Shown: piece after piece, positions 6,225 to 63,168 of the stretch
Numbering within the stretch: the first letter of the stretch is position 1
How the letters are laid out: every line of letters begins with the position of its first letter
Source of the DNA: a virus
Virus record (IMG/VR): IMGVR_UViG_3300034284_003265
Span: 27,194-91,193 of that record
Strand: one strand, 5' to 3'
Length of the DNA stretch: 64,000 nt
Notes under the pieces: generated by a model
Told to the model about the DNA's origin: nothing
The model's input: only the letters and a program-made list of their open reading frames with translations
Databases searched by the model: none
Made by a program: the position numbers and the translations under genes

Positions 6225-7598
6225 ATGCCAGTCTTATCTAATAACGGAAGATTAATTTCGAGTTTACCTATTGCGTCAAGTATAACTGGCGCCGATGAAT
6301 TATTGATTCAATCAAGCGGTGTCACTAAACGAATATATTACGCCACAATTTCTTCCAGCTTATTTTCTAGTTTGAGTTCTTATAACGGACTTGTTATATT
6401 AACAAATGACAATAATCAGTTTACAGGCAGTTTTTACAACCCAGATTTTAAATCATCTAATTTTTATACAGTTGCGGTTAGAAATACACTGACGGGTAAT
6501 ACTATTATTGCAACCTCTGGTTTTTCTGGAAATGTAACTGGCAACATAACATCTACTGGAACAAGTACATTTAGTAGTATTGATGTTAATGGAGGCGCTA
6601 TAGATGGAACATCTATAGGAAATTCATCCGAATCAACTATAAAAGGAACGAGAATAAGCGCTAGTATAGGTTTCAGAGGTAATATAACGTCTATAGGAAC
6701 AAGTACATTTAGTAACATTGATGTCAATGGTGGAACTATAGATGGTACGTCTATAGGAAATTCATCCGAATCAACTATAAAAGGAACGAGAATAAGCGCT
6801 AGTATAGGTTTCAGAGGTAATATAACAGGTTCGTTAAGAGGAGATATATATAGCCAAAATGGTAACAAAGTACTAGAAAATGGCACCAGTGCAAATCCAA
6901 ACGGGAATATACCTACAGCATTTTTTTACGGAACAAGTTCATATGCTATACAAGCACTAACAGCCGCCTATGCAGCTGCTGGTGGATCAGCAATAAATGG
7001 TATACCAAGCGGCGGAACTCAGTACCAAGTTTTAACTAAAAATACTGGAACTAACTATGATGTTGGATGGATAACTCCTATTACACGAAGTAGTGTACCA
7101 AATTCAAATTATTTAGCATTTTGGAATAATCCTACTACTTTATCAGATACGCAGATTTTATATACAACTTCTCCAAATGTTTTAACTTTTAATCCTGGTA
7201 CACTGAGAGTTCAAAATATAGAAATAATAGGCAATGGCTCCATTACTGGTTCATATAGAGGCAATCCTACAGATACAAAAACTATTAGTTCATTAAACCA
7301 GGGTAGATTTTTAAATGGGGTAAAATATGCAACACTTATACTTGAGTTAAGTCAGAGTGGAAACGTTACAATGTCATTATTGGATGGACAAACATCGACT
7401 GTTTTGGTAAAAAACAGTAATACATATACTATTCAACACTGGTCAGGTAGTTTAAATGGATCGACTGCTAATACTAAAATTTATTGGAAATCTGGCGTGG
7501 AACCATCTGTAACATCAGGCAATTTAAAACAAGATGTTTTCACATTTGTTAATGTTAAAGATAGAATTTATGGTTCTGCAATTCAGAATTTTAGTTGA
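6225..7598 (+). CDS. tail fibre / virion structural protein
   Basis: S/T/G/N-rich beta repeats (IDVNGGAIDGTSIG), 'GIPSGGTQYQVLTKN' fibre joint, C-terminal 'IYW...P..T...DVFTF' tip-like motif. Confidence 0.75.
   Translation: MPVLSNNGRLISSLPIASSITGADELLIQSSGVTKRIYYATISSSLFSSLSSYNGLVILTNDNNQFTGSFYNPDFKSSNFYTVAVRNTLTGNTIIATSGFSGNVTGNITSTGTSTFSSIDVNGGAIDGTSIGNSSESTIKGTRISASIGFRGNITSIGTSTFSNIDVNGGTIDGTSIGNSSESTIKGTRISASIGFRGNITGSLRGDIYSQNGNKVLENGTSANPNGNIPTAFFYGTSSYAIQALTAAYAAAGGSAINGIPSGGTQYQVLTKNTGTNYDVGWITPITRSSVPNSNYLAFWNNPTTLSDTQILYTTSPNVLTFNPGTLRVQNIEIIGNGSITGSYRGNPTDTKTISSLNQGRFLNGVKYATLILELSQSGNVTMSLLDGQTSTVLVKNSNTYTIQHWSGSLNGSTANTKIYWKSGVEPSVTSGNLKQDVFTFVNVKDRIYGSAIQNFS
6561..6826 (+). 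repeat. 138-nt (46-aa) tandem duplication
   Basis: 6612-6688 is identical to 6750-6826. Confidence 0.9.
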
Positions 7599-7599
7599 T

Positions 7600-8040
7600 A
7601 TGAGAAATTTTGCATTTTGGCAACAAGTTACATCAGGTGGAGGTACCAGTTATAATTTTAGTGATTATAGTCATCCAAGTAATTTTTCAACTTGTAAAAC
7701 GACGGTTAGAAATTTAATTACGGCACAAAGTTTAAGTAATATTGGAGATGATACAAAAATAGTATTACAATTTGTTGTGAATAGGTTAACTACTGTTACA
7801 AATGTAACTAATACAAATTCTTGGGCGCCGTATGGTACAACTACAATTAATTATAATTTAACATATCCAACAAAAGATCCTGATCCTGTAGTTCCAACTG
7901 GAAATAACATCGTTACTTTTGAAGTAAGAAAAAATTCAGATAGCTCATTAGTTGCTAATGGAACTCTTACGTTTTTAAGCAATGATGGTGCATCTGAATC
8001 TTATATAGAAATTGACTTTATTATATCACAAGTTATATAA
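7600..8040 (+). CDS. hypothetical fibre-associated protein
   Basis: ATG at 7600 directly after the upstream TGA; T/N-rich beta composition. Confidence 0.65.
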   Translation: MRNFAFWQQVTSGGGTSYNFSDYSHPSNFSTCKTTVRNLITAQSLSNIGDDTKIVLQFVVNRLTTVTNVTNTNSWAPYGTTTINYNLTYPTKDPDPVVPTGNNIVTFEVRKNSDSSLVANGTLTFLSNDGASESYIEIDFIISQVI

Positions 8041-8072: not shown

Positions 8073-8417
8073 ATGGCAATAAGTCCCTGTAACACTTTAA
8101 ATGTAAAAACGCTTAGAATAAGTCAATTAGCTTCTTCTGCTATTAGTTCCAATGATGTACTGATGATTTCTCAGTATGATAGTATCAATAACGTATATTA
8201 TTCTAAAAAAGCTACATTTGGAAATTTAATAACATATTTTGGTACCGTTAACGCTTCTTACAAAGGTTCGTTTACAGGTAGTTTAGACATAACATCTGGT
8301 TTGACAGGATCTAGTGTGGTTATATCACCAAGTGCTGGTACATTTTTTAATGACAATTTCTTATCTATATATTTGAATGGAAATCCATACAAAATTCCAT
8401 TGTATCCAAACGTTTAA
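8073..8417 (+). CDS. short virion fibre/decoration protein
   Basis: N-terminus paralogous to 6225 and 8430 (RISQL...DVLMI...SKK); GSFTGS motif. Confidence 0.65.
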   Translation: MAISPCNTLNVKTLRISQLASSAISSNDVLMISQYDSINNVYYSKKATFGNLITYFGTVNASYKGSFTGSLDITSGLTGSSVVISPSAGTFFNDNFLSIYLNGNPYKIPLYPNV

Positions 8418-8429
8418 TATTTATTATAT

Positions 8430-9581
8430 ATGCCTTTACCATGTAATAATGTCAGTGTAACTCCAATTAAAGTAAGTCAACTAGTTAGATATTCAAATTT
8501 AGACGGTGGCGATATATTGTTGACAGTAGAATCAGGTTCTTTACTTTGGTCAAGACGTAGTACTGTTAATGATTTAAAAGTTTCTATGGGAAAACTTACA
8601 GGATCGTACTCTGGTAGTTTTACCGGAAGTTTTGTAGGAGTATCATCTGGTAGTTTTAGCGGTAGCTACTGGGGAAAAATAACTAGTAAAAATGTTAAAG
8701 CCACGGGTAGTTTTAGTGGAAGTCATTGGGGAAGTTTAATTAGCAAAAACACTAAAGCCACAGGCAGTTTTAGCGGTAGTTATTGGGGAAGTTTAATTAG
8801 CAAAAATACTAAAGCCACAGGCAGTTTTAGCGGTAGTTATTGGGGGGCTATAGTAAGTAAAAACATTAAAGCCACAGGTAGTTTTAATGGTACTAATAAT
8901 AAATTAAGTGGCAGTTTTAGTGGCAGTTATTGGGGATCCATAAATAGTAAAAATGCTAAAGCCACCGGCAGTTTTAGTGGCACAAACAACAAACTGAGTG
9001 GCAGTTTTAGTGGCAGTTATTTTGGAAAAGTAGTTAGTAAAAATTCACTTTTAACCGGTAGTTTTAGAGGCATAGATAATATCACAAATTTTAAAAATAC
9101 AGGCAAAAAAGTATCTTTTAATGGCACATCAAGTTATGCTGTAAGTAGCAGTTATGCACAAACCGCAAGTTTAATTACATCAGGTATTGGTGGATTTCCA
9201 GTTTCATTATACAAAGAACAATTAAGTACAAACACAGTTGCTTTTTTCATAGGCGGCGGCAATGAAGGAGTCGGGACTTTTAATTTCGCAATAACACATG
9301 GTTTTGGTACTAGTCCATCTTTGGTTAGAGCTACGTTATATTGTAATAGTAATGATTTAGGATACGTAACAGGTGATGAAGTAGGAGTTGAAGTAGCTGA
9401 AGATGACACTGGAGGCGCCGATGATGAAAGAAACATCTTTGCGGTTTGGACAAATTCCACATATGCAGGTGTATCAATAGGAGAGTATTCAGCTGGAGTT
9501 TATATATCACAGAAAACAGGCGGTACAAGATCTCCAATCAATCAAAATAGTTGGAAATTAAAAATTAGAGTTTGGAAATAA
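8430..9581 (+). CDS. fibre-like virion protein with GSFSGSYWG repeats
   Basis: tandem 19-aa repeats; C-terminal 'ITHGFGTSPSLVRATL...WKLKIRVW' beta domain. Confidence 0.75.
   Translation: MPLPCNNVSVTPIKVSQLVRYSNLDGGDILLTVESGSLLWSRRSTVNDLKVSMGKLTGSYSGSFTGSFVGVSSGSFSGSYWGKITSKNVKATGSFSGSHWGSLISKNTKATGSFSGSYWGSLISKNTKATGSFSGSYWGAIVSKNIKATGSFNGTNNKLSGSFSGSYWGSINSKNAKATGSFSGTNNKLSGSFSGSYFGKVVSKNSLLTGSFRGIDNITNFKNTGKKVSFNGTSSYAVSSSYAQTASLITSGIGGFPVSLYKEQLSTNTVAFFIGGGNEGVGTFNFAITHGFGTSPSLVRATLYCNSNDLGYVTGDEVGVEVAEDDTGGADDERNIFAVWTNSTYAGVSIGEYSAGVYISQKTGGTRSPINQNSWKLKIRVWK
8650..9070 (+). repeat. 57-nt coding tandem repeats (GSFSGSYWGSLISKNTKAT) interspersed with GSFxGTNNKLS units
   Basis: recurring ggcagttttagcggtagttattgggg...aaagccac. 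Confidence 0.9.
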
Positions 9582-19352: not shown

Positions 19353-21020
19353 ATGCACACATTTATTTATCCATCTCAAGATACCTACATAAACAATTCG
19401 CCTGAATTTGTCAATAAAAATTTTGGCATTGATGAAATTTTAGAAATCTACGCTTCCAATATTGGTAATTCCGTAGTTTACACAGATCCAGTTTGGCACG
19501 ATGCGCCACAGACTGCTTCCTCTTATGGAAACAATGGATGGTTAGCCTATACAACATCCTCATTATTTATTTATTCAGGAAGTGCTTGGTATGCATATTC
19601 TTTAACTTCGTCTGTAATACCAAATACATCTTTTATATCAAATTTTACCGGAAGATTATCTAATAAAACAAATCCTCCACGAAAACCACTTTACATTTCA
19701 GGATCAGCTACTTTTGCATCTGGATCTTTTGTTGGACAGTTTACCTCAGCTCAATGTGTAACTTCTTCATTTAGTGGAAGTTTTAGTAGTTCTAGCTTTA
19801 AAGGAATCATCAGTACCAATACGTCTAGTAATTTATACTATGTCGATGTAGTAAATTTCGCTGGATATTTTAAAGGGATTTATAGTGGATCATTTGAAAG
19901 ACCATCTACAGCTACATATCTGAATAGACCTGAATTTTCAAGAACATTGATAAAGTTTGATTTAACTGAGTTAAGTAAATCTGTATCAGATAATAATATA
20001 AGCGGTTCTAATATTAAATTTACTTTGAATTTGAAAGCATGTGGATCTAGAAATTTACCACTAAATTATAGTATATATGCTTATCCAGTCAGTCAAAGTT
20101 GGAATAATGGAAATGGAAGATATGCAGATCACGGATCTCAATTGGGATCTAGTTGGTTATATAGAAACTACGATGGAAATGGTTTATGGTATGGGAATTC
20201 GATATCAAATAGTTATCAACAAGTAGATTATTTGACGAATCCATCTTATGCTAGTGCTAGTTTTCAAAATCAAGGAGGTACGTGGTATTATAAAGTACCA
20301 GCTTCTTATACAAACAAGCCAAAATGGATTTGCAATTCAACGAAGTATCCATCTTTGGTAAATGCAAGTTTAATTTGTAGTCAGTCATTTAGTTACGGAC
20401 AACAAAGTGACGTTACTATGGATATAACTAAAATCGTTAGAGGATGGTTATGTGGATGCGTTCCAAATCAAGGACTTATGTTATTGAGTTCTTTGGAAAT
20501 TTCAACTCCTCCATTACAACCAACCAATGGACTACTACAGTTTTTTAGTAAAGAAACAAATACTATTTATAGTCCATATATTGATGTAGCCTGGGATGAC
20601 AGTATATTTAATACCGGAAGTTTGAAACCTGTTTCAGGATCAATTCAAAATTTAATTACATTGAATTACTTGAAAGAAGCCTATAAAGCTGGAAGTTTAC
20701 CAAAAATATTTGTATTTGCTAGAGATAGATATCCGTTGAAAAACTTCCAAAAAGCTTATCAACAACCAGCTATGGTTACGCCGCAGTATCTTCCAACTAG
20801 CTCATATTATATGATTAAGGACGCTGAATCAGAAGAAGTTTTAGTGGGATTTGATCAATATACAAAGTTGAGTTGTGATCCAAATCAAGGTAATTATTTT
20901 AAATTACAAACAACTGGATTGCCACAAGAAAGATATTTGAAAATATTTATAAAATCGGAATATAAAGATGGAACTATAGATATTACAGATACCCAAAAAA
21001 TATTTAAGATAACAAGATAA
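19353..21020 (+). CDS. baseplate/tail structural protein (DNRLRE-like features)
   Basis: 'PSQDTYI...NFGIDEILEI', 'SRTLIKFDL', 'DITKIVRGW', 'FFSKET'; SGS-rich. Confidence 0.6.
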   Translation: MHTFIYPSQDTYINNSPEFVNKNFGIDEILEIYASNIGNSVVYTDPVWHDAPQTASSYGNNGWLAYTTSSLFIYSGSAWYAYSLTSSVIPNTSFISNFTGRLSNKTNPPRKPLYISGSATFASGSFVGQFTSAQCVTSSFSGSFSSSSFKGIISTNTSSNLYYVDVVNFAGYFKGIYSGSFERPSTATYLNRPEFSRTLIKFDLTELSKSVSDNNISGSNIKFTLNLKACGSRNLPLNYSIYAYPVSQSWNNGNGRYADHGSQLGSSWLYRNYDGNGLWYGNSISNSYQQVDYLTNPSYASASFQNQGGTWYYKVPASYTNKPKWICNSTKYPSLVNASLICSQSFSYGQQSDVTMDITKIVRGWLCGCVPNQGLMLLSSLEISTPPLQPTNGLLQFFSKETNTIYSPYIDVAWDDSIFNTGSLKPVSGSIQNLITLNYLKEAYKAGSLPKIFVFARDRYPLKNFQKAYQQPAMVTPQYLPTSSYYMIKDAESEEVLVGFDQYTKLSCDPNQGNYFKLQTTGLPQERYLKIFIKSEYKDGTIDITDTQKIFKITR

Positions 21021-21496: not shown

Positions 21497-24400
21497 ATGC
21501 CTTACGACTATTTAACAATTAATGAACTTGATCTCGCTAATGGTATAGCAAGTGCTTCGTATTTTCAACAAGACTTACAATCTTTATACGAACAACAAGT
21601 TTTAAACTCTGAAAACTTTTTCGGGGACACGAATGATGATATATTAGAATTAAGCGTTTATAATAGTAACCAAGAGCCAATTCTTTTTAATAGGGTAATA
21701 CCGAAAACAACTTATAGCATCGTACAATCGTCGTATAAAGATATAAACAACGTTCAACGATCATATAAAGTTGCAAATCCATTTACAAATTATGCTTTAT
21801 ATGGCAATGAATTGTTGTTACACAGTCAATTCGATCTTAAGTTTGATGAATTAAGCCCTGGTTTGTATTATGTTCTATATAATCCAATTAGAAACATTGC
21901 TGGGAATACGTCTAATAGATTATTTATAAAAGAAATATCTCCAAGTCGAACCGAATTAAGATTGTCTTACGCATTTGATCCAACTCTTAATGAAGCCAAT
22001 AGAGTAGATTCAGTAAAAATATCAGCATTTGCGGATAAAAAATTTGTTTTCTTACAAGTAATAGACCAAATTATTCCTATCGTAGATAGAAACCCTATAG
22101 ACGAATCATTTAACGCAAATTCTCCTAATTTTAATTATTTGAAATATGCACAACTACTTGGGTTTAAATCTTCGGCTGAATTGCAAGAATTTATAAATTC
22201 AGTTTACGTTGGCTATAATAAAGTTGTAAATCTATCTAATGATGCTGATTCTGTAATTAGTCAGAATATAAAATTTGCAGGAATTGCCGAACAAATAAAA
22301 AACTTTGTTTACACTTATAATGAAACTGAATTTTCCCAGGACGAAATACTGACGGCTATTTCATTGATTGTAGCAAAAGTAAGTCAAGACGCAATATTAC
22401 AAAGAACAACTTTAACAGACACAGATCTCGCCGAAACAGTAAATGTATTTGTAGAAATCGCATACAGATATTGGTTGCAACCAAAGATTACAGAATTATT
22501 AAATGACTATAGTCTAAAGTTTTATGGATTTTATAAAAATGCATTAAATTTTGATAATGGAAATTTAGTAAAAATATTAACTCACACAAGTTATTTAAAT
22601 GTAGTAGATAATCGTATTAACGTTCAAATTAAATTAGATAGTCCACTTCCATCTGAGTATTCTATAAGAGACACTTGTTGGATTTCTAACATCTCATTGG
22701 CTCCTTTATATTTTAAAATTAACTTATATACTGCTCCGATTTCACGAAAAGTTTATTTGAATGGAGTTAATTTTACAGTTGCAGTACCATCTGTTAATCC
22801 AACGAATGACAAGTTTAACGCTACAAATGATAATACATTATTTGCAGCTAAAGCTAGAACTCAACAAAAAATAAATGATTTGTTGATTAACTATAATGAT
22901 TTTAGCAATTTTATTAATTTTTCTTCCGCTGAATTAAGAACTAAGATAGCTAAAAGTAAAATTTCTAAATATGACTCATATGAAACATCCAAGAGTCAAA
23001 TAAAGAACCAAGCATCCGCAACATCTAACATTTCTATATCTGCTTCGTATTCAAATGATTTTACTAAGATTATAAACGAACAAATTTCATTACTAGATAG
23101 CTTCGATGAATATGAATCTTATCTATTTTATTCTACATCTAGTATAGATCAAAAAATAGAAGATGGCATAAGTTTTGATAAAAGCAATTACAATTCTTTA
23201 TTTTATCAATTGCCAGAGTATATTAAGACCGAAGAATCCAATGCTGATTATATAAAGTTTACAGCAATGGTTGGACATTTCTTCGACAACATTTTGGTTT
23301 TTGTTAAGAAGTTTCCGAAATCTTATCCAATTAATTGGGACGATAACAATAGTTATCCTAAAAATTATATAGAAGAATTATTAAATAATTTTAACTGGGA
23401 TGTTACTAATTTTAAGTTTAACAAAAGCGATGTAAATCAATTGTTGTTTAACAATACGCAAATGTCTGGAAGTTTATCATCCTCATATTTTGATTATGCT
23501 AAATCTATATTTAATAGAATAACAAATAATTTAAGTTACATATATAAAACTAAAGGAACATCTACATCGTTTAATCTGATCCGTTCAATTTTTGGAATAT
23601 CTTCAGATTTGATTAATGTAGTTGAATATAGCAGTCCAAATGTTTTAATAAATAGAAATGTTTACTATGATTTTGATGATATAGTGTATGCTACTAAGTA
23701 TCAAGATAATCAATTCATTAACTTCAATTTTACGAGTAGTGAATTTAAATATTTAGTTACTCAAGATAGTTTGAGTGGAAGCTATACAGGAAGTTATAAC
23801 GGAGACACAATATATTTAACAAGATCTTATATAGAAAATTTTACAGGAGTTTCTACTGTAGAATGTACATTTAGATCAAATGAATGGAATAAATATAATT
23901 ATAAAGATAAAATTCCACTTATTAAGAAACTAAGAAATGATAATTTAGACTGGCAAGTTTATTTGTATAAAACAAAACAAAGAGAATCTGCAAAATTAAT
24001 TTTTGAATTAAGTCCTATAGGATCCACAATAGCTACATCCAGTATAGAAAGTATTGAAATGCCTTATTTAAATGGCGATTTTTATACTTTCATGGTTAGA
24101 AAAGAACCAAATGATTCAATAAGATTTGATGCGTTGTCACCGTCATCCTCAATGACATCAAGCATTGGATATTATGGAAATTATAATGTAACTCAATCTA
24201 TCTGTGAAACTTTTTATCCAAATGCGTACAAGTATATACCTCAGACATATACATTATATGTAAATCAATATTATGGAAGTTTATTAAATTTCACAGATAA
24301 AAAAACCAAGACGATATTGTATGATCAAAATCAATATTTCTCTTCTGGAAGTTACTATGTTGGAAACTTTTCATCTTCTATTCAATTTAATGGAAATATA

Positions 24401-25996
24401 GATAAAATTAAAGTTCAAAAATATGCATTGAGCGATGCTGATTTCCAAGAACACTCTTATAATTTGAGTTCGATTTCAATACCCGAAAAGTCTTTGGTGT
24501 ATGAAAATATGTATTATTTATGGAGTTTTGATACTCCTGTAAATTTGTATGGAAGTCCATCTGTTATTCCTAATCAAAATAATAGATACAACACAGAATT
24601 CTATGCGTATAATTTTCAAAGAACACCAGTGGTATGTGGAGCTCCTATTTGTGATACCATATTATCTGATATTTTCCCATATCAATTTGATAAATTTAAT
24701 GTTAAACAAGCTATTAACTCAAATCGATTTGGGCCAAATTATAAAGACAATGCTAATATCAATAAAATAATACAGGACGTAAGTTCTAATTTGTTACCAT
24801 ACGAATATTCCACATATACAAGAGATATAATCGGAAGCGATTCTAATTTGGTAGGATATTATATTTCCCCATATAGATATTTAAACGAAAATATAGAAGA
24901 CTTTTTAGGAAAAGAAGGAATATCTGATATCATTGGAGATCCTAAATATCTCACATCAAGAAACTATCCGGAATTAAAACTAAGACAAAGAGAATTTGAA
25001 GATTCAAATAAAAAATATATTTATCCACAAGAATATTATAGTACCTATAAGTTTTATATCGATTTTTCAATATTTGATTTTATTAAAAAATTGACTCCGA
25101 CCCGTGGTACTTTAAAGAGAGGACTTTTATTGGAACCTTCTATATTTGAACGAGTAAAGTTTAATTATAAAGATGCCGTATTTTCCCCTCTTGATCCAAA
25201 TACAACATCTAGCTTAATGTTATATGAAATCAGACCGTCATTCTTATCTTCGTTAATAGATACAGTCAATTCATCAAGTAATACGGTTATAAACATTGAA
25301 TCTGTTAATGGAATTGATACTGATCGTGATACTTATAATTTTTCAAGATTTGAAATCAAAGATAAAGTGGATGATAGAGATTTTATATTTGCTAAATATG
25401 GTAAATACGTAAATGTTAATAAAAACGGATACATTGTACGAAATACTATAAATTATTCTGAAAATGATTATTATCAATCCCATAATAATACAGGTTCTAT
25501 TGTAACATTCACATCAAGTTATAAATCCGTACAAACTATTGGTTCCGGATCGGGAGATTTAAATAATCAAATTACAGGTAGTCGTTCATTAACAGACATT
25601 TATTACGGAAACATGAGTAGTGGTTATTCCCAAAGACATTTAAGTAAATTTGTACGAGTTGGTAGTAGACTAAAAAGACAAGCCGTTTCTGGATCTTATT
25701 ACGTTATTAACAATGGTATAAAAACATTGGCTAATGGTAAATTATCATACTACACTTATACAAAAGGTCAAAACGATTATACAACCACAGTGAACAGACA
25801 AGGTTTACCAAATGGATCATCTCCTATTATATCAATACCAGGATATTTGTCAGTTGACATTGAAAGCGATAATTTCCCTAAATATGGTATTCTAACTGGA
25901 TCGGTTGGATCGCCAAATAGTTTATTTATACAACAACCACTTACATGTTCTACGTGTACCAGTGCTAGTATGAATATGTATATTATGAATTTATAA
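21497..25996 (+). CDS. large baseplate wedge protein, gp7-like
   Basis: 'LPEYI...MVGHFFD' and 'YIYKTKGTSTSFNLIRSIFG' resemble the gp7/P2 gpI KGT motif; 1499 aa. Confidence 0.6.
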   Translation: MPYDYLTINELDLANGIASASYFQQDLQSLYEQQVLNSENFFGDTNDDILELSVYNSNQEPILFNRVIPKTTYSIVQSSYKDINNVQRSYKVANPFTNYALYGNELLLHSQFDLKFDELSPGLYYVLYNPIRNIAGNTSNRLFIKEISPSRTELRLSYAFDPTLNEANRVDSVKISAFADKKFVFLQVIDQIIPIVDRNPIDESFNANSPNFNYLKYAQLLGFKSSAELQEFINSVYVGYNKVVNLSNDADSVISQNIKFAGIAEQIKNFVYTYNETEFSQDEILTAISLIVAKVSQDAILQRTTLTDTDLAETVNVFVEIAYRYWLQPKITELLNDYSLKFYGFYKNALNFDNGNLVKILTHTSYLNVVDNRINVQIKLDSPLPSEYSIRDTCWISNISLAPLYFKINLYTAPISRKVYLNGVNFTVAVPSVNPTNDKFNATNDNTLFAAKARTQQKINDLLINYNDFSNFINFSSAELRTKIAKSKISKYDSYETSKSQIKNQASATSNISISASYSNDFTKIINEQISLLDSFDEYESYLFYSTSSIDQKIEDGISFDKSNYNSLFYQLPEYIKTEESNADYIKFTAMVGHFFDNILVFVKKFPKSYPINWDDNNSYPKNYIEELLNNFNWDVTNFKFNKSDVNQLLFNNTQMSGSLSSSYFDYAKSIFNRITNNLSYIYKTKGTSTSFNLIRSIFGISSDLINVVEYSSPNVLINRNVYYDFDDIVYATKYQDNQFINFNFTSSEFKYLVTQDSLSGSYTGSYNGDTIYLTRSYIENFTGVSTVECTFRSNEWNKYNYKDKIPLIKKLRNDNLDWQVYLYKTKQRESAKLIFELSPIGSTIATSSIESIEMPYLNGDFYTFMVRKEPNDSIRFDALSPSSSMTSSIGYYGNYNVTQSICETFYPNAYKYIPQTYTLYVNQYYGSLLNFTDKKTKTILYDQNQYFSSGSYYVGNFSSSIQFNGNIDKIKVQKYALSDADFQEHSYNLSSISIPEKSLVYENMYYLWSFDTPVNLYGSPSVIPNQNNRYNTEFYAYNFQRTPVVCGAPICDTILSDIFPYQFDKFNVKQAINSNRFGPNYKDNANINKIIQDVSSNLLPYEYSTYTRDIIGSDSNLVGYYISPYRYLNENIEDFLGKEGISDIIGDPKYLTSRNYPELKLRQREFEDSNKKYIYPQEYYSTYKFYIDFSIFDFIKKLTPTRGTLKRGLLLEPSIFERVKFNYKDAVFSPLDPNTTSSLMLYEIRPSFLSSLIDTVNSSSNTVINIESVNGIDTDRDTYNFSRFEIKDKVDDRDFIFAKYGKYVNVNKNGYIVRNTINYSENDYYQSHNNTGSIVTFTSSYKSVQTIGSGSGDLNNQITGSRSLTDIYYGNMSSGYSQRHLSKFVRVGSRLKRQAVSGSYYVINNGIKTLANGKLSYYTYTKGQNDYTTTVNRQGLPNGSSPIISIPGYLSVDIESDNFPKYGILTGSVGSPNSLFIQQPLTCSTCTSASMNMYIMNL

Positions 25997-26691: not shown

Positions 26692-27801
26692 ATGATATTC
26701 ACCCCATTTACTCCAGACGATATAGTAGCAGGCAGAATTAACCAAGTATCATCGGGTATGTTTGGTACTGGTAGTTTAACAGTAGCACAATCGTCCTTCG
26801 TAACATCATCTGCTCAAGCAAATGTCATGACAGGATCAAGTCCATATGATGTTAAAAATGGACAGTACTATGTAGATGTTTATAGCGGAGCCGATCAATA
26901 TTTTGCTATTGCTTATGGAGATTATTATAATTCAGGAAGTAGCTATTTTGATTGGCCGGGTCAGTCCGTAGCGAGTGTATATACCAATGAAACCAAAATT
27001 ATATACAGTCAATATAAAAATACACTTCTTCAACCAGGCGACACATTTTTTAGTTTTGCCTCAGGCAGCGTAGATTCTCCAACCGATAGTTCGGCTATAT
27101 TCGTACTAAACTACGTAACAGATAAATTCCAAGATCAAATTGATCCTGGTCAAATTCAATTAAATTTTACAGGCGCTTTAGGTCAATTCTCATATATTGA
27201 CGATTCACAAGTAGTTAATACACAACAAAACGTTTATAATTTGATCTCGGGATCAGTTATTAATGGCGTCCCTACTCCATATACCAAAGGAGGAACAGTT
27301 TCGGCTGTTTACGAAGGAATTGGTTTATTTTATCCAACAAACGGAGTTGTTATATTGAATGCACTAAAGTTAGATGCAAAAGTTGGTATTACCGGAAATC
27401 CTCCGGAAATTACTAGTGCTAGAACCACAAATCAGTATTCAGTTAACTGGAAAAGTTATTGGAGAAATTGGTTGCGTAAATTTTATTTAAGTCTTAGAAG
27501 ATCAAATAAATACATGGCAATTCGTAAATCCGAATTTGTACCATCTACGAATTACTTCATAAGAGTTAAAAATAAAGAGTTCAACTATAGTAACAATCCA
27601 ACATTTGTATCAGATGGTACGGATGGTCAAACAAAGGGGACTATTATCTATCCAGAATTGATTAGTAATCCTCGTACTTATATTACTACAATTGGATTGT
27701 ATGATTCTAATAATGAATTACTTGCAGTTGGTAAATTAAGTAGACCTACGCAAAAATCATTTGATAATGAATTGTTAATTAAGTGTCGTATTGATTTTTA
27801 A
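26692..27801 (+). CDS. baseplate structural protein
   Basis: C-terminal 'YITTIGLYDSNNELLAVGKLSRP' motif. Confidence 0.6.
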   Translation: MIFTPFTPDDIVAGRINQVSSGMFGTGSLTVAQSSFVTSSAQANVMTGSSPYDVKNGQYYVDVYSGADQYFAIAYGDYYNSGSSYFDWPGQSVASVYTNETKIIYSQYKNTLLQPGDTFFSFASGSVDSPTDSSAIFVLNYVTDKFQDQIDPGQIQLNFTGALGQFSYIDDSQVVNTQQNVYNLISGSVINGVPTPYTKGGTVSAVYEGIGLFYPTNGVVILNALKLDAKVGITGNPPEITSARTTNQYSVNWKSYWRNWLRKFYLSLRRSNKYMAIRKSEFVPSTNYFIRVKNKEFNYSNNPTFVSDGTDGQTKGTIIYPELISNPRTYITTIGLYDSNNELLAVGKLSRPTQKSFDNELLIKCRIDF

Positions 27802-27836: not shown

Positions 27837-28580
27837 ATGATTAAATTTCTTAAAAATCAAGACATACAAATCACTACATTTTCAGTAGCAAAAGAAAAGA
27901 TTGCTAATAACATCTTTTCCGATTTGATTTTTGCTAGCGATGGAACTTATAACTTTCCATTGATTATTCCTGTACAAGAATGTGATTACAATTTTAATTC
28001 ATTGTCTACAGGATCTTTTGCCACAGTTAATACACAAACGTGTTATGCGTCAATTGTTAATCAAAATGGATTTTTAGCTTGTTCGCCGATAAACGATCCA
28101 AATAATCCACAGTTTCAACTTGGTTTAAAATTACCAACTGGATCAGTATTTTATCCAGTCGATAATATTCATTATAATGCTGAAACTAATCCTACTAATT
28201 TAGACGGCACTTATCAGGGACAGGTTTATAATACAATTAAGAAAATGTATTATAATAATTATAACAATGCCTACAATATTTTTGGATTTGATAGTTATGA
28301 TATATCTGAAGCTAGTTTGAGTCTGGATGATAAATTTGTAAGTTATACATTAAATGTCACTCAGAGTGGCGATAGAATTAGTCCTTTTAGTGTATTAATT
28401 AACAATCAGACAGGCGATATAGTTGGCAGTATTTTAGATGATGGAAATAATAATTTGTATTTATCTGGATCATATTTCATCAATGATTTTGAAGTTTATT
28501 CGACCAACACGGAAAGTGTGGTTAATTATGGCATAACAGGACTAGGACAATATTTGTATTATGGATCAATGTCCACATAA
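27837..28580 (+). CDS. hypothetical structural protein
   Basis: N/S/T-rich, 'ILDDGNNNLY'; TATTTATA at 27824-27831. Confidence 0.65.
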   Translation: MIKFLKNQDIQITTFSVAKEKIANNIFSDLIFASDGTYNFPLIIPVQECDYNFNSLSTGSFATVNTQTCYASIVNQNGFLACSPINDPNNPQFQLGLKLPTGSVFYPVDNIHYNAETNPTNLDGTYQGQVYNTIKKMYYNNYNNAYNIFGFDSYDISEASLSLDDKFVSYTLNVTQSGDRISPFSVLINNQTGDIVGSILDDGNNNLYLSGSYFINDFEVYSTNTESVVNYGITGLGQYLYYGSMST

Positions 28581-36430: not shown

Positions 36431-37354
36431 ATGATAGATTTAGATATTACATATAATTGTACAGAAAATGTTATTACTGTAAAAAATAACGCAACCAGTT
36501 TTACAGGAGTATTATGGTTTTCAATTACAGACTGTGAAACAAATCTTAATGTAACATGTTGGTGGATGAATACTGCTCCATATGAATTCCAAACTTGGAA
36601 TTTGCCTTTAAATTATTATGAAGTTGTAAAAGAATTTGATATTAATGTGATGGATGAACAGTTTAATTTACTTTTTAAAAAAAACATACAATTAAAAAAA
36701 TTCACTTCCAAAATAGATTTCAAACCAAAAAATAAAATGGAAGTTACATATGGATCTTGGGAGTCGCTTGTTTATAGAAATGAGTATGACATAAAAATTA
36801 GATCAGATGATGTTGTTTATGACTTAGGCGGAAACGTTGGCGTATTTAGTAAATGGTGTTTGAATAAAAATGTAAATTACATTTATCTTTTTGAACCTGA
36901 CACTAGATGTGTGGAAAACATGAAAGATTTGTTTGACATTGATAAAAATAGAATTGAGTTGATAAATAAAGTCATTCTTGATAAAGATGGAAAAACGAAT
37001 TTTTATTTGCATCAACATTCAATTGCAAATAGTCTATTTTTAGAATCAAATGAATTTCTAGAAATAGATTCTATTAATTTAGAAAAATATATTATTGAGA
37101 ATAATTTGAAAAAACCTACATTGATTAAATGTGATATAGAAGGAGCTGAATATAAATTTATAAATAGTGTTAGCGATTCTTTTTTTAATACAGTAAGAAT
37201 TTTTATTCTGGAGTTTCATTTCTTAGACGCAAATCATAAATACGAGATGTATAAAATCTTAGAAAGATTTTTATCAATTGGGTATACTATCAGATTGAGC
37301 AATATTTCTAAATTTGAAAATAATGTTGGAACATTAATTTTTGAAAAAATGTAA
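36431..37354 (+). CDS. FkbM-family methyltransferase
   Basis: DLGGNVGVF, FEP, IKCDIEGAE and LEFH motifs. Confidence 0.9.
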   Translation: MIDLDITYNCTENVITVKNNATSFTGVLWFSITDCETNLNVTCWWMNTAPYEFQTWNLPLNYYEVVKEFDINVMDEQFNLLFKKNIQLKKFTSKIDFKPKNKMEVTYGSWESLVYRNEYDIKIRSDDVVYDLGGNVGVFSKWCLNKNVNYIYLFEPDTRCVENMKDLFDIDKNRIELINKVILDKDGKTNFYLHQHSIANSLFLESNEFLEIDSINLEKYIIENNLKKPTLIKCDIEGAEYKFINSVSDSFFNTVRIFILEFHFLDANHKYEMYKILERFLSIGYTIRLSNISKFENNVGTLIFEKM

Positions 37355-37401
37355 TTATATAAAAAAATTACTTAATTAGCTGTGATGTACTTATAAGGTG
37401 T

Positions 37402-48800: not shown

Positions 48801-49768
48801 GATTTGAAGGTCAATGGCCAGCAATTCCAATCAATGTTGGTAGTAACATTACTCCAGGCAACACTCAAGGTCTAGATTGTACAAACATTAATAGTCCAGG
48901 TAGTATTGCTTACAAACAATGTATTGCTGCTCTAGGTAACGCAGATGAATTTGATATTAATTTGATCGTGTTGCCTGGTATCTTCCGTTCTCTACACAGT
49001 TATGTTACTGAATTGGTAATCGATATGTGTGGAACTCGTCAAGATTGTTTCTACATCATGGATAACGTAGTATTCCCAGCAAGTAATCAAACTGTAGGAT
49101 TGATCGATGCTGCTATAAACAGTGTCGCTGACATTGACAGTAACTATGTAGGTACTTATTATCCTTGGGTTAAGATCCTAGATACTAATACCAACAAGAT
49201 TATTAGTGTTCCTCCTTCAGTAGTATTGCCAGCAGTTTACGCTGCTAACGATAACTCCGCTGCTGAATGGTACGCTCCAGCCGGTCTAAACCGTGGTGGT
49301 ATTCCAACCGCAGTACAAGTACTTGATCGTGTAACCCACGCTGAACGTGATACATTGTACGAAGGCCGTGTAAATCCAATCGCAGCATTCCCTGGCCAAG
49401 GTATTTGTGTATGGGGTCAAAAGACTCTACAAATTGCCCCAAGCGCTTTGGATCGTATCAATGTACGTCGTTTGTTGATCAACTTGAAGAAGTTTATCGC
49501 AAGTTCAAGCAACTACTTGGTATTCGAACAAAACGTTGCTTCTACAAGAAATCGTTTCTTGAGTATTGTAACTCCATATTTGGAATCAGTACAACAACGT
49601 AACGGTATCTACGCATTCCAAGTCAAGATGGATGCTGAAAACAATACTCCTGACTTGATTGATCGTAACATCCTCTACGGACAAATCTATATCCAACCAA
49701 CTAGAACCGCTGAGTTTATTATACTCGATTTTAATATACTCCCAACGGGCGCTCAATTTTCTGCCTAA
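45815..49768 (+). CDS. contractile tail sheath protein (gp18-like), 1317 aa
   Basis: SPGVFTRENDLS N-terminus; YYPWV, WYAPAGLNRG, WGQKTLQ and DRINVRRL C-terminal motifs. Confidence 0.95.
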   Translation: MPIQEGGTFAPTQNIVSPGVFTRENDLSALAQGVANIGGAIVAPFADGPAFFPATISEVSTLESTFGLADGVYYGPYTAKEYLQQQGIVTVVRVGGLTGYWQKSPLIVYAQPGSWDRGADAGAITTASFMYLDDTSYTTNINYQQSSSVLYSSGSNNTAVGKNNFIGLNGKITVTKASTSEISSFLLNNISSLPYYLSLSSSLASSGSKGKVLKITTTDYYNQFTASVQRRNFTVGKTTNYSLANFDFQKSRFSGSLSQSATTDSLVFDTNTFGNVAGTQNNAPYSTTYPYYSYLTASYTLSGNVITYGLVFAKLPSNQTTNFSSVTYNLAKSTGSYEFRVDNSRLSLSGAINVKFGSVAATSLVNAASTDGTGTLSGSVLYAGQQLNLGSIGPILFTKKGAPGNSSYPYYYLSSSVQAQDVSAETVISTAFAESTTTVALFSSSYFGNTAGNVIVDYDSDVLNVSSGTVRLISGSVESLRGSGTCVAGLQLKGVISGNFAKYTGTFSPNGTNSNDPCNPNTSGRQNMILAVLANTQNASTQFSNDYEVYGFNGTTLSQLTSSAFPYKNLINPNENVYNLALRYSFSNPNGSVSSGTYGYYDFSLNENDNNYIKDVFGIDPTVGNPDKQIAGQKVEAAYNYVLFEDSIKKFVAEKTSTLGWRLQVGTNSLSGSTIVGEPLKFVDQYSTNLNAGDSQFGITNAYTPWVYSQKISPFKGSANEAAVPTKFQLFKAHTLSDGTLSNNKYKIEISNVKLAGTVPGSDWGSFTLGVRAYSDTDKKPKYLEIFQNLNLDPDSANFIARRIGDRYAYITYAGKIIQYGTYANLSRYIRIEMSDVAYPVVCIPYGFESYSTPINSTANIYVPYVQYSKASIYGLAPGKYPSGTVFGAVPGTDSEIQSLYPTSSFGVGVDNNTKQYFNPLPYYGSTDSNGLNIDFDLEDKVYGTSTAKYYAQGTSASTGSLLNPSLSGSIPSIYDAVNESTYVKLRKFVLGFQGGFEGQWPAIPINVGSNITPGNTQGLDCTNINSPGSIAYKQCIAALGNADEFDINLIVLPGIFRSLHSYVTELVIDMCGTRQDCFYIMDNVVFPASNQTVGLIDAAINSVADIDSNYVGTYYPWVKILDTNTNKIISVPPSVVLPAVYAANDNSAAEWYAPAGLNRGGIPTAVQVLDRVTHAERDTLYEGRVNPIAAFPGQGICVWGQKTLQIAPSALDRINVRRLLINLKKFIASSSNYLVFEQNVASTRNRFLSIVTPYLESVQQRNGIYAFQVKMDAENNTPDLIDRNILYGQIYIQPTRTAEFIILDFNILPTGAQFSA

Positions 49769-61287: not shown

Positions 61288-61341
61288 AATTAGTTTGCGA
61301 GTAAAAACCTAACAGTAATTAATATAGAAAGAAATAAAAAT

Positions 61342-63168
61342 ATGAGTATGGATGTAAAAAGTCTATTGACAAACAATATGAATCCACAAGCCAAATTGAT
61401 GGCTGAAACACGTGGACTACAAAACAAGTGGGAAAAGACAGGCCTCCTAGAAGGTTGCCAAGGTGTTGAAAAAGCACACATGTCTATCCTCTTGGAAAAC
61501 CAAGCAAAGCAATTGCTCGACGAAGCAACTACAACTGGTACTTCTACCAGTTCTGAACAATGGGCTGGCGTAGCTCTTCCATTGGTTCGTCGTGTATTCG
61601 CTGAAATCGCTGCGAAGGAATTCGTAAGCGTTCAACCAATGAACCTACCATCTGGTCTAATCTTCTATCTAGACTTCAAATATGGTACAACCGCTCCAAA
61701 CCAAGACTTGCGTAACTTGAACAACGGTAGTTCCAAGACTACCCGTGCAGGTAAGCAATTGAATGACAGTTTGTTCGGTGGTACAGGTAAGAAATTGGGT
61801 TCAACCGATAGCGCAGTACGTGGTCTATACGGTCAAGGTGCTTATGCATATTCTGTACGTCCAGTAAGTAGCTCTGCTATTACTTTGACAAAGACCGCTG
61901 GTTCAACAAACAACGGTAACACAATTCAAACAGCTTCATGGAACGATGTTCAATTTGATGCTGATTTGAGCGCATCAGTTGTGGCTAAGAAGTTGTTCAA
62001 AGTTATTTTGAACCACGACGACAATACCTCTGGTATTGCTGCAAACGGATATGTATACAACGCCGATTTGGTCGCAGTACGTTCATTCAACTTGATCTCT
62101 GGTTCAACTACTCCAACCACTCTACAAAGCAGTGGTTTGGTATTGAATACCTATAGCAAGGCAATTAACACTGGTAGTTTGGGCGATCCATTCTATCAAT
62201 CTGTATACATTGTATCTGCATCTAACAGTGCATTCGGCGGTGTATCTAGCAAGATTAAATTGATCTATAGTCTACAACCTACCGATAACTTACGTGGTGA
62301 CTTCGAAGCTGGTAAGACCGCAGGTGAAGGTTCTGGTACCTCTGGTAACGTTGCTACACAAAGCATCGATACTGATATCAGTATCCCAGAAGTAAACTTG
62401 GTACTAAACAGTGAACCAATCGTTGCTAAGACCCGTAAGTTGAAGGCAGTCTGGACCCCAGAATTGGCTCAAGACTTGAACGCATATCACTCCATTGATG
62501 CAGAAGCAGAACTTACTGCTCTATTGAGTGAATATGTATCTATGGAAATCGACCTCGAAATCCTAGACATGTTGAACGAAGCCGTTCAAGGTCAAACAAC
62601 CGAAGCTTGGTCCGCCCAAATCGGTGTTGAATTCAGCAAGAGCATCAACGCAACCACTGGTGAAGCAATCTTCACACGTAATGCAAACAGTTCACCAAAC
62701 CGTACTGCTTACGTAAAGAGCACTTGGTTCCAAACTCTTGGAAACAAGATTCAAAAGGTATCTAACACAATCCAAAAATTGACCCTACGTGGTGGTGCTA
62801 ACTTCTTGGTCGTAAGTCCAGACGTAGCAACCATCTTGGAATCAATTCCAGGATATGTAGTAAACACTGATGGTGATCAAGCTAAGTTCGCAATGGGCGT
62901 AAGCCGTGTTGGTAGCTTTGCTTCTCGCTTCCAAGTTTACAAGAACCCATATATGACCGATAACGTTGTATTGGTTGGTTTCCGTGGAAATAACTTCCTA
63001 GAAACCGGTGCTGTATATGCTCCATATATCCCACTAATCCAAACTCCATTGGTCTATGATCCAGTGAACTTCACTCCACGTAGAGGTGTAATGACCCGCT
63101 ACGCTAAGAAGGTCGTCAGACCAGAATTTTATGGAAAAGTTATTATCGGTGATCTCGATACCGTATAA
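61342..63168 (+). CDS. major capsid protein (gp23-like)
   Basis: LLENQ, PLVRR, VQPM..PSGLIF, KTRKLKA.WTPELAQDL, YAPYIPL, FTPRRGVMTRY. Confidence 0.97.
   Translation: MSMDVKSLLTNNMNPQAKLMAETRGLQNKWEKTGLLEGCQGVEKAHMSILLENQAKQLLDEATTTGTSTSSEQWAGVALPLVRRVFAEIAAKEFVSVQPMNLPSGLIFYLDFKYGTTAPNQDLRNLNNGSSKTTRAGKQLNDSLFGGTGKKLGSTDSAVRGLYGQGAYAYSVRPVSSSAITLTKTAGSTNNGNTIQTASWNDVQFDADLSASVVAKKLFKVILNHDDNTSGIAANGYVYNADLVAVRSFNLISGSTTPTTLQSSGLVLNTYSKAINTGSLGDPFYQSVYIVSASNSAFGGVSSKIKLIYSLQPTDNLRGDFEAGKTAGEGSGTSGNVATQSIDTDISIPEVNLVLNSEPIVAKTRKLKAVWTPELAQDLNAYHSIDAEAELTALLSEYVSMEIDLEILDMLNEAVQGQTTEAWSAQIGVEFSKSINATTGEAIFTRNANSSPNRTAYVKSTWFQTLGNKIQKVSNTIQKLTLRGGANFLVVSPDVATILESIPGYVVNTDGDQAKFAMGVSRVGSFASRFQVYKNPYMTDNVVLVGFRGNNFLETGAVYAPYIPLIQTPLVYDPVNFTPRRGVMTRYAKKVVRPEFYGKVIIGDLDTV

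What the first reader, a model, noticed from the sequence alone, without database searches (positions are those of the whole stretch)
6225..63168. (S/T)GS, SAS and SSS motifs saturate external virion proteins: possible glycosylation sequons
Seen: fibres (6225, 8073, 8430), baseplate proteins (19353, 21497, 26692, 28592), the sheath insertion and the MCP insertion repeatedly carry SGS/TGS/SAS/TSS. PhoH, primase, terminase, portal and scaffold appear to have few (by eye, not counted). Inference: one short motif recurring across unrelated folds points to a shared modification or a shared surface function, and the BAHT enzymes are natural candidate writers.
Basis: partly seen in the sequence, partly recalled or inferred. 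Interest (0 to 1): 0.8.

Follow-up and report, generated by a model that had tools for sequence, protein, structure and literature searches.

The report
Ser/Thr-Gly-Ser tag on phage tail proteins
The baseplate, fibre and sheath-insertion proteins of this uncultured aquatic T4-like phage carry the tripeptide Ser/Thr-Gly-Ser about five times too often, but the excess is just as strong in relatives that lack the TibC-like sugar transferases, so those enzymes do not explain it, and it may instead be a tag for an older, clade-wide modification system.

Summary
[ST]GS is the most over-represented tripeptide in the window's proteins. Against 30-residue local shuffles it occurs 33 times versus 6.2 expected in the baseplate, 25 versus 5.7 in the fibres and 9 versus 2.7 in the sheath. 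Head, packaging, replication and sugar enzymes have 1 versus about 1.5-2. The order matters (SGS 43, GSS 8, SSG 16) and the codons vary, so the signal lies in the peptide. [ST]SS is enriched in the baseplate. SAS/TAS are not significant in this window, and the capsid signal is weak.

Window 42761-44893 is a real GT4-TibC fusion. Yet across 145 related loci the excess is 2.4-8 fold in 144. The pooled ratio is 4.99 where BAHT is on the contig and 4.95 where it is not, and three complete BAHT-free genomes are enriched.

The motif marks the clade and is older than the BAHT island. All five complete enriched genomes share a GT4-like gene pair. One relative lacks the second gene at its usual place and has lost most of the motif. 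My best reading (about 0.45) is a modification tag for that pair. A purely structural motif is about 0.35. No chemistry exists. Earlier runs of this scan noted the same motif on other DNA (85 notes).

The parts
8430..9581 (+). Tail-fibre protein (383 aa). Its shaft is made of tandem 19-residue repeats, each carrying TGS-F and SGS-Y/H.
   Evidence: 19 [ST]GS vs 2.4 expected; 18 are followed by a hydrophobic residue. Relatives differ in repeat number (383/402/428 aa), and one has a swapped C-terminal tip. No Pfam, PHROG or PDB hit.
6225..7598 (+). Fibre-like protein (457 aa) rich in Ser, Thr and Gly
   Evidence: 8 [ST][GAS]S vs 5.6 expected, not significant on its own.
8073..8417 (+). Small fibre-related protein whose N-terminus resembles that of 8430
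   Evidence: BLASTP 32-34% identity to the N-terminus of 8430; 2 TGS.
19353..21020 (+). Baseplate-module protein (555 aa), directly downstream of the gp6-like wedge gene 17372
   Evidence: 17 [ST][GAS]S vs 4.0, z 6.5. The site W-D-D-S-x-F-N-TGS-L is conserved in Mel-JY01 and in the BAHT-less immuto. 18 of 20 distant loci have a homolog.
21497..25996 (+). Large baseplate-module protein (1499 aa)
   Evidence: 22 vs 5.8, z 6.9. A homolog is present in 20 of 20 distant loci. The LR756508 homolog (1400 aa) has only 2 [ST]GS.
26692..27801 (+). Conserved baseplate-module protein (369 aa), used as the marker of the clade
   Evidence: 5 [ST]GS vs 0.5. In 47 orthologs the sites at residues 81, 160 and 186 are held by 30-35 sequences, with Gly invariant or nearly so. 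The AF2 model has pLDDT 80.5. Fold searches were inconclusive.
27837..28580 (+). Baseplate-module protein (247 aa)
   Evidence: 3 [ST]GS vs 0.3, all followed by a hydrophobic residue.
28592..31246 (+). Baseplate-module protein (884 aa) with FG-GAP repeats
   Evidence: 18 vs 4.3, z 6.6; Pfam FG-GAP_2, E 2e-22.
45815..49768 (+). Tail sheath (1317 aa). Residues 56-980 (window 45980-48754) are extra material outside the conserved C-terminal sheath domain.
   Evidence: PHROG and Pfam sheath hits cover residues 982-1316 only. 19 of the 20 motif hits lie in residues 56-980. Aligned against the 776-aa and 709-aa sheaths of Mel-JY01 and immuto.
61342..63168 (+). Major capsid protein (gp23-like, 608 aa)
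   Evidence: 49% identity to the capsid proteins of Mel-JY01 and immuto. The motif excess is weak: 7 vs 3.1, p 0.03.
42761..44893 (+). Fusion of a GT4 glycosyltransferase (N-terminal) with a BAHT/TibC-type heptosyltransferase domain (residues 331-700)
   Evidence: PDB 4rap TibC, E 3e-73 over residues 331-700. The alignment conserves Asp110, Thr226, Lys230, Arg286, Trp305 and the four iron-finger Cys (339, 342, 358, 370). The residue lists come from PMC4358343. Pfam hits: TibC_1st, Glyco_transf_9, Glycos_transf_1.
44877..45722 (+). Short BAHT paralog (281 aa), equivalent to the C-terminal half of the domain
   Evidence: 50% identity to residues 503-704 of 42761; Pfam Glyco_transf_9.
36431..42713 (+). 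Rest of the variable glycan island: FkbM methyltransferase; GT4+FkbM+methyltransferase; GNAT; DegT-like aminotransferase; GT2 with an unassigned C-terminal part
   Evidence: Pfam. Gene content differs between close relatives.

Best explanation
Shown: [ST]-G-S (more loosely [ST]-small-S, usually with a hydrophobic residue on each side) is an ancient, ordered peptide signature. It marks the outward-facing tail proteins (peripheral baseplate, fibres, sheath insertion) of a very large clade of aquatic T4-like phages. The clade includes Flavobacterium phage immuto, Microcystis phage Mel-JY01 and Rhodothermus phage RM378. The signature is older than the BAHT glycan island of this phage and does not depend on it. 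Inferred: the tripeptide is most likely a recognition or attachment tag for a modification made in the cytoplasm by clade-core enzymes. The best candidates are a syntenic pair of divergent GT4-like glycosyltransferases, called GT-A and GT-B here. They would put a sugar on one of the serines of newly made tail proteins before assembly. The BAHT-GT4 island next to the sheath gene would then be a lineage-variable add-on. It may decorate some of the same strand-Ser-Gly-Ser-strand elements or the sheath insertion, but it is not what keeps the motif in place. The fibre shafts built of (S-G-S-hydrophobic) runs use the same element as a structural repeat. In them Ser would face outward, and Gly and the aromatic residue inward.
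For: The enrichment is real, order-specific and at the peptide level. It is confined to tail-surface proteins and absent from head, packaging, replication and sugar enzymes. It is clade-wide: 144 of 145 IMG/VR loci around homologs of 26692 are 2.4-8 fold enriched, and TGS (z 41) and SGS (z 35) are the top tripeptides in 32 distant loci. It is absent from T4 (0.66x) and SPO1 (0.97x) and weak in S-PM2 (1.5x). It is independent of BAHT: pooled ratio 4.99 on 12 BAHT+ contigs vs 4.95 on 37 BAHT- contigs, and the SGS share of [ST]GS sites is 0.59 vs 0.60. The complete BAHT- genomes immuto (4.3x), RM378 (5.4x) and G016 (4.7x) are enriched. The sites sit in mixed secondary-structure contexts in a confident model: loops, a helix N-cap and strands. 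Orthologs keep 3-9 sites each, with turnover. The fold does not need the motif. The syntenic orthologous modules of LR756508 (5 observed vs 3.0 expected) and L153 (5 vs 6.4) lack the excess while keeping the Gly. GT-A is present in all six complete clade genomes. GT-B is present in immuto, Mel-JY01, G016 and G033, and there is a weak syntenic match in RM378. It is missing from its syntenic place in the motif-poor LR756508. Both genes are absent from T4, S-PM2 and SPO1. GT-B occurs in no other lineage among 50,697 phage records.
Against: There is no chemical evidence of any modification. The link between the GT pair and the motif rests on one loss lineage, possibly two, and is otherwise confounded by shared ancestry. 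This phage's own contig is only 31% complete and does not carry the GT pair, so its presence here is inferred. Gly is invariant at the best-conserved sites, and the hydrophobic flanks and tandem fibre repeats fit a structural role. Phage GT4 enzymes could equally act on DNA or on host polysaccharide.
Confidence: 0.45

Rival explanations
1. Purely structural signature. Hydrophobic-[ST]-Gly-Ser-hydrophobic would be a packing element of this clade's beta-rich tail proteins: a small residue facing inward between two large ones, Ser/Thr facing outward, and a tight turn or bulge at the Gly. It would be inherited with the baseplate and fibre module and reused as a 4-residue and 19-residue fibre-shaft repeat. 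No modification would be involved.
For: Site positions are conserved among orthologs, with Gly invariant at residue 81 (47/47) and nearly so at 186 (46/47) of the 26692 family. Hydrophobic residues are enriched before (55%) and after (59%) the motif against a 34% background. Tandem (SGS-F/Y) runs occur in the fibre shafts of this phage and of BAHT-less immuto. The enrichment is inherited with a syntenic module.
Against: In the one confident model the sites lie in loops, strands and a helix cap rather than in one context. Ser is strongly preferred to Thr at the third position (SGS 18 vs SGT 3.8 per 10,000 aa), which beta propensity alone would not predict. Orthologous modules of LR756508 and L153 do without the Ser flanks while keeping the Gly. 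Site number is maintained despite turnover. T4 and SPO1 tail proteins show nothing of the kind.
Confidence: 0.35
2. One reading: the motif is the sequon of the phage's BAHT (TibC/AAH-type) heptosyltransferases, which wrote it into the virion proteins.
For: Window 42761-44893 carries a BAHT domain that is intact by sequence, with all catalytic, sugar-binding and iron-finger residues conserved. BAHTs act in the cytoplasm on Ser at the start of a short loop between two strands (PMC3835316), and the TibA sites N-S-G-G and T-S-A-A have Ser followed by a small residue. BAHT is far more common in this clade (12 of 49 contigs) than among sequenced phages (4 of 50,697 records).
Against: Enrichment, site positions and Ser:Thr ratio are the same in relatives without BAHT, including three complete genomes. 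No linear consensus is reported for the BAHT enzyme Aah, and TibC modified Ser but not Thr in TibA, whereas 40% of the sites here start with Thr. On BAHT+ contigs G026 and G027 the large protein next to BAHT has only 1 [ST]GS. The neighbourhoods of BAHT in the huge phages LR756501 and LR756504 are not enriched.
Confidence: 0.07
3. A tag for something other than sugar: a docking motif for a clade-specific fibre or baseplate assembly chaperone, another modification such as phosphorylation, or a surface chemistry (a hydroxyl-rich stripe) selected for adsorption in water.
For: It has the same distribution as above: outward-facing tail proteins only, clade-wide, and dispensable in two lineages.
Against: No conserved candidate enzyme or chaperone lies in the syntenic module. 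Nothing points specifically to this reading.
Confidence: 0.1
4. An artefact of composition, low-complexity stretches or one tandem repeat.
For: Most of the fibre hits come from one repeat array, and these proteins are rich in Ser, Thr and Gly.
Against: Local 30-residue shuffles and permutation controls still give z about 10 in the baseplate, which has no tandem repeats. The result was reproduced in 144 other loci.
Confidence: 0.02

Closest known systems
Bacterial autotransporter heptosyltransferases (BAHT: TibC/TibA, Aah/AIDA-I)
   Same: They O-glycosylate many serines of a beta-rich surface protein in the cytoplasm. The acceptor Ser sits at the start of a short loop between two strands and is followed by a small residue. 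A true homolog is encoded in the window.
   Different: Here the domain is fused to a GT4 and sits in a phage glycan island. No autotransporter is present. The motif excess does not depend on the enzyme. Thr is frequent at the first position, and known BAHTs have no linear sequon.
Mycobacteriophage virion glycosylation by phage-encoded glycosyltransferases (Freeman et al. 2023; known to me only through its citation in PMC12619734)
   Same: Phage-encoded soluble glycosyltransferases are thought to coat virion proteins.
   Different: In that system the glycans sit at the C-termini of capsid and tail-tube subunits. Here the candidate sites are internal tripeptides on baseplate, fibre and sheath-insertion proteins, in an unrelated myovirus clade, and there is no chemistry.
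GtfA/GtfB glycosylation of serine-rich repeat adhesins in Gram-positive bacteria (from my own knowledge, not tested here)
   Same: A pair of GT4-type proteins modifies Ser in Ser-small-Ser repeats in the cytoplasm.
   Different: No detectable sequence relation was found. The nearest PDB hit of GT-A is the chlorovirus glycosyltransferase B736L at E 0.0016, and GT-B has none. The substrates here are folded structural proteins with dispersed sites.
Repetitive shaft motifs of phage tail fibres
   Same: Tandem short repeats rich in Gly/Ser with a periodic aromatic residue; copy number varies and tips are swapped between relatives.
   Different: The same tripeptide is also dispersed as single sites through non-fibrous baseplate proteins and a sheath insertion.

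Membership tests
BAHT (TibC/AAH) heptosyltransferase: claim for window 42761-44893, residues 331-700 | Full-length sequence homology to TibC, including the N-terminal beta-barrel | tested here: met
   phmmer vs PDB: 4rap_A, E 3.2e-73, query residues 331-700 against TibC 16-386; Pfam TibC_1st and Glyco_transf_9.
BAHT (TibC/AAH) heptosyltransferase: claim for window 42761-44893, residues 331-700 | Catalytic base Asp110 and sugar-binding residues Thr226, Lys230, Arg286, Trp305 | tested here: met
   All five are identical in the alignment. The residue list comes from PMC4358343.
BAHT (TibC/AAH) heptosyltransferase: claim for window 42761-44893, residues 331-700 | Four-Cys iron finger (TibC Cys339, 342, 358, 370) | tested here: met
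   All four Cys align with Cys in the query. The positions come from PMC4358343.
BAHT (TibC/AAH) heptosyltransferase: claim for window 42761-44893, residues 331-700 | Dodecameric ring, and transfer of heptose from ADP-heptose to Ser | not testable with these tools
   Needs purified protein and an activity assay.
BAHT (TibC/AAH) heptosyltransferase: claim for window 42761-44893, residues 331-700 | Cognate substrate encoded next to the enzyme (beta-helix with 19-residue repeats) | tested here: inconclusive
   The downstream neighbour is the sheath with a motif-rich insertion. The only protein with 19-residue repeats, 8430, lies 33 kb upstream. On G026 and G027 the neighbour is motif-poor.
[ST]GS as the acceptor sequon of BAHT | Motif enrichment travels with the presence of BAHT among relatives | tested here: not met
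   Pooled ratio 4.99 (BAHT+) vs 4.95 (BAHT-). Complete BAHT- genomes are enriched 4.3-5.4 fold.
[ST]GS as the acceptor sequon of BAHT | Known BAHTs recognise a linear consensus | tested here: not met
Phage virion O-glycosylation with a tripeptide sequon (clade-core GT-A/GT-B pair) | The GT pair co-occurs with motif enrichment in complete genomes | tested here: inconclusive
   Five of five enriched complete genomes carry the pair, although in RM378 GT-B is only a weak syntenic match. LR756508 lacks GT-B and is motif-poor, and three outgroups lack both. There is only one clear loss event, and the pair is not on this phage's partial contig.
Phage virion O-glycosylation with a tripeptide sequon (clade-core GT-A/GT-B pair) | A sugar is covalently bound to a motif serine | not testable with these tools
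   Needs mass spectrometry of virions.
Phage virion O-glycosylation with a tripeptide sequon (clade-core GT-A/GT-B pair) | Motif residues are exposed on the surface | tested here: inconclusive
   Only the secondary structure of one model is available. Of its six [ST][GAS]S sites (five of them [ST]GS), three are in loops, one at a helix N-cap and two in strands. The fibre model was unusable (pLDDT 38.6).

The most novel reading that the evidence does not exclude
A very large clade of aquatic T4-like phages (hundreds of IMG/VR contigs, with hosts from Bacteroidota to cyanobacteria) coats its baseplate, fibres and sheath with sugars. They would be attached in the cytoplasm at a three-residue O-glycosylation sequon, [ST]-G-S, by a clade-specific pair of divergent GT4 enzymes. 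Some lineages, including this phage, would have added a second layer: an island built around a phage version of the bacterial TibC/AAH protein heptosyltransferase fused to a GT4.
Probability: 0.4. Interest if true: 0.85.

Novelty: new variant of a known kind. Interest (0 to 1): 0.6.

Why it matters
Protein glycosylation of phage particles has been shown chemically in only a few systems, and no short O-linked sequon is known for it. If [ST]GS is such a tag, glycosylated tail surfaces could be predicted from sequence alone across hundreds of environmental phages. That bears on adsorption, host range, particle stability and grazing or immune recognition. It would also supply a compact cytoplasmic O-glycosylation tag with its enzymes. 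Whatever the motif does, the window holds a phage-borne BAHT fused to a GT4, which extends a family known from enterobacterial adhesins. For this finding, the practical result is that the motif cannot be used as evidence that the BAHT genes act on the virion.

Tried and rejected
1. A DNA-level word (methylation site, promoter, slippage) was rejected, because the sites use many different codon triplets.
2. Composition or low-complexity artefact was rejected by whole-protein shuffles, 30-residue local shuffles and permutation controls.
3. 'Only the tandem fibre repeat' was rejected, because the baseplate proteins have no internal or mutual BLAST repeats and still give z 10.5.
4. 'A general property of phage tail proteins' was rejected by T4, SPO1 and S-PM2.
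5. A megablast of 17 kb of the window and a tblastn of the fibre against sequenced phages gave nothing useful. PHROGs and Pfam name few of the baseplate proteins, and the PDB sequence searches of 8430, 26692 and 19353 were empty.
6. The fold of 26692 remains unassigned. Foldseek had no hit at E <= 0.001, and the best VIA-align Z was 5.0, to phage baseplate proteins, so no family is assigned.
7. The AF2 model of fibre 8430 from a 4-sequence alignment had pLDDT 38.6 and was not used.
8. I looked for the GT-A/GT-B pair in this phage's lineage. It is not on the 91-kb contig or on nine close relatives' contigs, and none of 80 GT-B loci overlaps this lineage. That is uninformative, because the contigs are 8-34% complete.
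9. The phage's own GT4 domains are not orthologs of the core pair by BLASTP.
10. Literature searches found no paper on this motif or on Mel-JY01. The Freeman et al. paper is not held.


Full report
WHAT THE WINDOW IS. The window is the right-hand 64 kb of a 91-kb IMG/VR viral contig that CheckV estimates to be 31% complete. It belongs to a low-GC (about 31%) distant T4-like myovirus. Its capsid protein (61342-63168) is 49% identical to those of Microcystis phage Mel-JY01, Flavobacterium phage immuto and the uncultured 484-kb phage LR756508, and 36% identical to that of Rhodothermus phage RM378. PHROGs and Pfam confirm five genes: a gp6-like baseplate wedge (17372), the tail sheath (45815, conserved part residues 982-1316 only), large terminase (52547), portal (54160) and prohead protease (57892). 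Genes 19353-31246 follow the wedge gene. They are syntenic in every relative I examined, so I treat them as the peripheral baseplate module. Most have no named family. Genes 36431-45722 form a glycan-enzyme island.

THE OBSERVATION. I translated 53 ORFs and counted [ST][GAS]S against whole-protein shuffles. The excess sits in 8430 (22 vs 6.3), 19353 (17 vs 4.0), 21497 (22 vs 5.8), 28592 (18 vs 4.3), 45815 (20 vs 7.5), 26692 (6 vs 1.7) and, weakly, the capsid protein (7 vs 2.6). Terminase, portal, protease, primase, nuclease and all the sugar enzymes have 0-3.

An unbiased scan of all tripeptides against 30-residue local shuffles puts SGS (43 vs 12.4), GSF and TGS (30 vs 8.9) at the top. Same-letter permutations are not enriched (GSS 8, SSG 16). 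SAS and TAS equal their permutations in this window.

The residue after the motif is F/Y/L/V/I in 67% of sites outside the repeat protein, and the residue before it is often I/L/F. The underlying codons are diverse.

Grouped, with local shuffles:
- Baseplate: [ST]GS 33/6.2 and [ST]SS 29/12.6.
- Fibres: 25/5.7, but only 6/2.6 without 8430.
- Sheath: 9/2.7, with 19 of 20 composite hits in residues 56-980.
- Head and packaging: 1/1.4.
- Replication plus glycan enzymes: 1/1.9.

Its core is [ST]-G-S, and SAS and the capsid were overstated.

THE BAHT GENES ARE REAL. Residues 331-700 of 42761-44893 match TibC (PDB 4rap) at E 3e-73. The alignment conserves the catalytic Asp110, the sugar-binding Thr226, Lys230, Arg286 and Trp305, and the four iron-finger cysteines. 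The N-terminal 330 residues are a GT4 domain. Gene 44877-45722 is a half-length paralog. Only 4 of 50,697 sequenced phage records encode a BAHT: Mel-JY01 and three huge uncultured phages.

DOES THE MOTIF TRAVEL WITH BAHT? It does not. Immuto, RM378 and LR756508 have no BAHT or GT9 gene. Genome-wide observed/expected [ST]GS is 3.5 for this contig, 2.8 for Mel-JY01, 2.5 for immuto and 2.9 for RM378, against 0.66 for T4, 0.97 for SPO1 and 1.5 for S-PM2. Within the tail modules it is 6.2 here, 6.7 in Mel-JY01, 4.3 in immuto and 5.4 in RM378.

The fibres of immuto carry the same S-G-S-F / T-G-S-F runs. Individual sites are conserved between this phage, Mel-JY01 and immuto.

I then collected 80 IMG/VR loci around homologs of 26692, out of at least 556, and 65 more distant ones. 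Of these 145 loci, 144 are enriched 2.4-8 fold. BAHT is present on 12 of 49 searchable contigs. The pooled ratio is 4.99 with BAHT and 4.95 without it, and 4.09 for the five BAHT-negative contigs that are at least 47% complete, one of which is a 100% complete 365-kb genome. The share of SGS among [ST]GS sites is 0.59 vs 0.60.

On BAHT+ contigs of other sublineages the large gene next to BAHT is motif-poor.

WHAT THE MOTIF IS. Across 32 distant loci (200,000 residues) TGS (z 41, 4.1x) and SGS (z 35, 4.3x) are far ahead of every other tripeptide.

In 47 orthologs of 26692 the sites at residues 81, 160 and 186 are held by 30-35 sequences. Gly is invariant at 81 and nearly so at 186, and the flanking Ser are 65-85% conserved. 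Other sites turn over, yet every ortholog but one keeps 3-9 sites.

An AlphaFold2 model built on this alignment (pLDDT 80.5) places the six sites in three loops, one helix N-cap and two strands. That is not a single structural context. Fold searches did not name the protein.

Two clade members have the same syntenic module without the excess. LR756508 has 5 vs 3.0 expected, its 1400-aa homolog of 21497 has only 2 sites, and only the two most conserved sites of 26692 are retained. L153 has 5 vs 6.4, and its 26692 homolog has none although it keeps the Gly. The folds therefore do not require the serines.

A CLADE-CORE CANDIDATE WRITER. Earlier notes of this scan on other DNA claimed that a conserved pair of glycosyltransferase genes accompanies the motif. 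I tested this myself. Immuto 49128-50570 (GT-A) and 50573-51883 (GT-B) are adjacent, weakly GT4-like genes with syntenic orthologs in Mel-JY01.
- GT-A is present in all six complete clade genomes: immuto, Mel-JY01, G016, G033, RM378 and LR756508. It is absent from T4, S-PM2, SPO1 and the two BAHT+ huge phages.
- GT-B is present in immuto, Mel-JY01, G016 and G033. RM378 has a weak HMM match (E 2e-6) in the syntenic downstream ORF.
- In LR756508 the gene upstream of GT-A and GT-A itself are conserved, but the next ORF is unrelated.
- Among 50,697 phage records GT-B occurs only in immuto and Mel-JY01. IMG/VR holds at least 258 loci.

The pattern is thus: pair present with motif-rich tails in 5 of 5 genomes, GT-B lost with motif-poor tails in 1 of 1, and neither feature in three outgroups. 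This is suggestive, but it rests on one loss event and is otherwise confounded by common descent. This phage's own contig is too incomplete to show the pair.

READING. It is shown that the motif is real, ordered, peptide-level, restricted to outward-facing tail proteins, clade-wide, dispensable for the folds, and independent of BAHT. It is inferred (about 0.45) that the motif is a tag for a cytoplasmic modification by the clade-core GT pair, with the variable BAHT-GT4 island as a lineage-specific addition. The island lies between the nuclease gene 33243 and the sheath or terminase genes in all BAHT+ clade contigs, and its content differs even between close relatives. The main rival (about 0.35) is a purely structural packing and turn element that is also used as a fibre-shaft repeat. 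The BAHT-sequon reading retains about 0.07. No chemistry exists for any of these readings.

NOVELTY. I found no publication on this motif. Phage virion glycosylation and BAHTs are both known kinds, so a tripeptide tag on tail proteins served by a phage-specific GT pair would be a new variant. Earlier runs of this scan have noted the same motif on other DNA many times (85 notes).

Noticed in passing
window 8430-9581; L162-L164: The fibre shaft is a tandem array of 19-residue repeats. Copy number differs between near-identical relatives (383, 402 and 428 aa), and L164 carries an unrelated C-terminal tip. This is ordinary fibre modularity, seen here at close range.
   Followed up: partly
window 36431-45722; L072, L073, L318-L323: The glycan island differs between relatives whose flanking genes are 80-98% identical. 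Homologs of 36431, 39830 and 40255 are missing in L072/L073, 40899 is only 57% identical there, and other relatives carry different GT and methyltransferase fusions. The island behaves like a diversifying cassette.
   Followed up: partly
L319 (G005) 2460-5257, minus strand: In this close relative the large-terminase gene is split into two pieces, matching residues 1-260 and 246-529 of the window's TerL. A 252-aa ORF with no homolog in the window lies between them. It may be a homing-endonuclease or intein-type insertion.
   Followed up: no
window 33243-36428; LR756508 122538-126751; L153 18011-21428: The nuclease (calcineurin-like phosphoesterase plus SMC_N domains, 1061 aa) is a single ORF here but is split into two ORFs, with another gene between them, in the two motif-poor relatives. 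This hints that those two form one sublineage.
   Followed up: no
Mel-JY01 (W01) 83444-84929: The GT-A homolog of Mel-JY01 is interrupted by one in-frame TGA. This could be a sequencing error, a pseudogene or a two-piece enzyme.
   Followed up: no
window 1852-4539 (-) and 14837-16477 (+): An 895-aa minus-strand protein has a weak collagen-repeat hit. A 546-aa protein is unusually rich in Gly (16%) and Ala (11%). Neither carries the motif, and I did not characterise either one.
   Followed up: no
window 9710-10192: An Hsp20-family small heat-shock protein gene (PHROG 432, E 1e-21) lies between the fibre genes and the baseplate module.
   Followed up: no
L074-L077, L081: In other IMG/VR phages the BAHT domain is part of giant multi-domain proteins of 1021-1736 aa, so fusion of BAHT to other sugar-modifying domains seems to be the rule in phages.
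   Followed up: no
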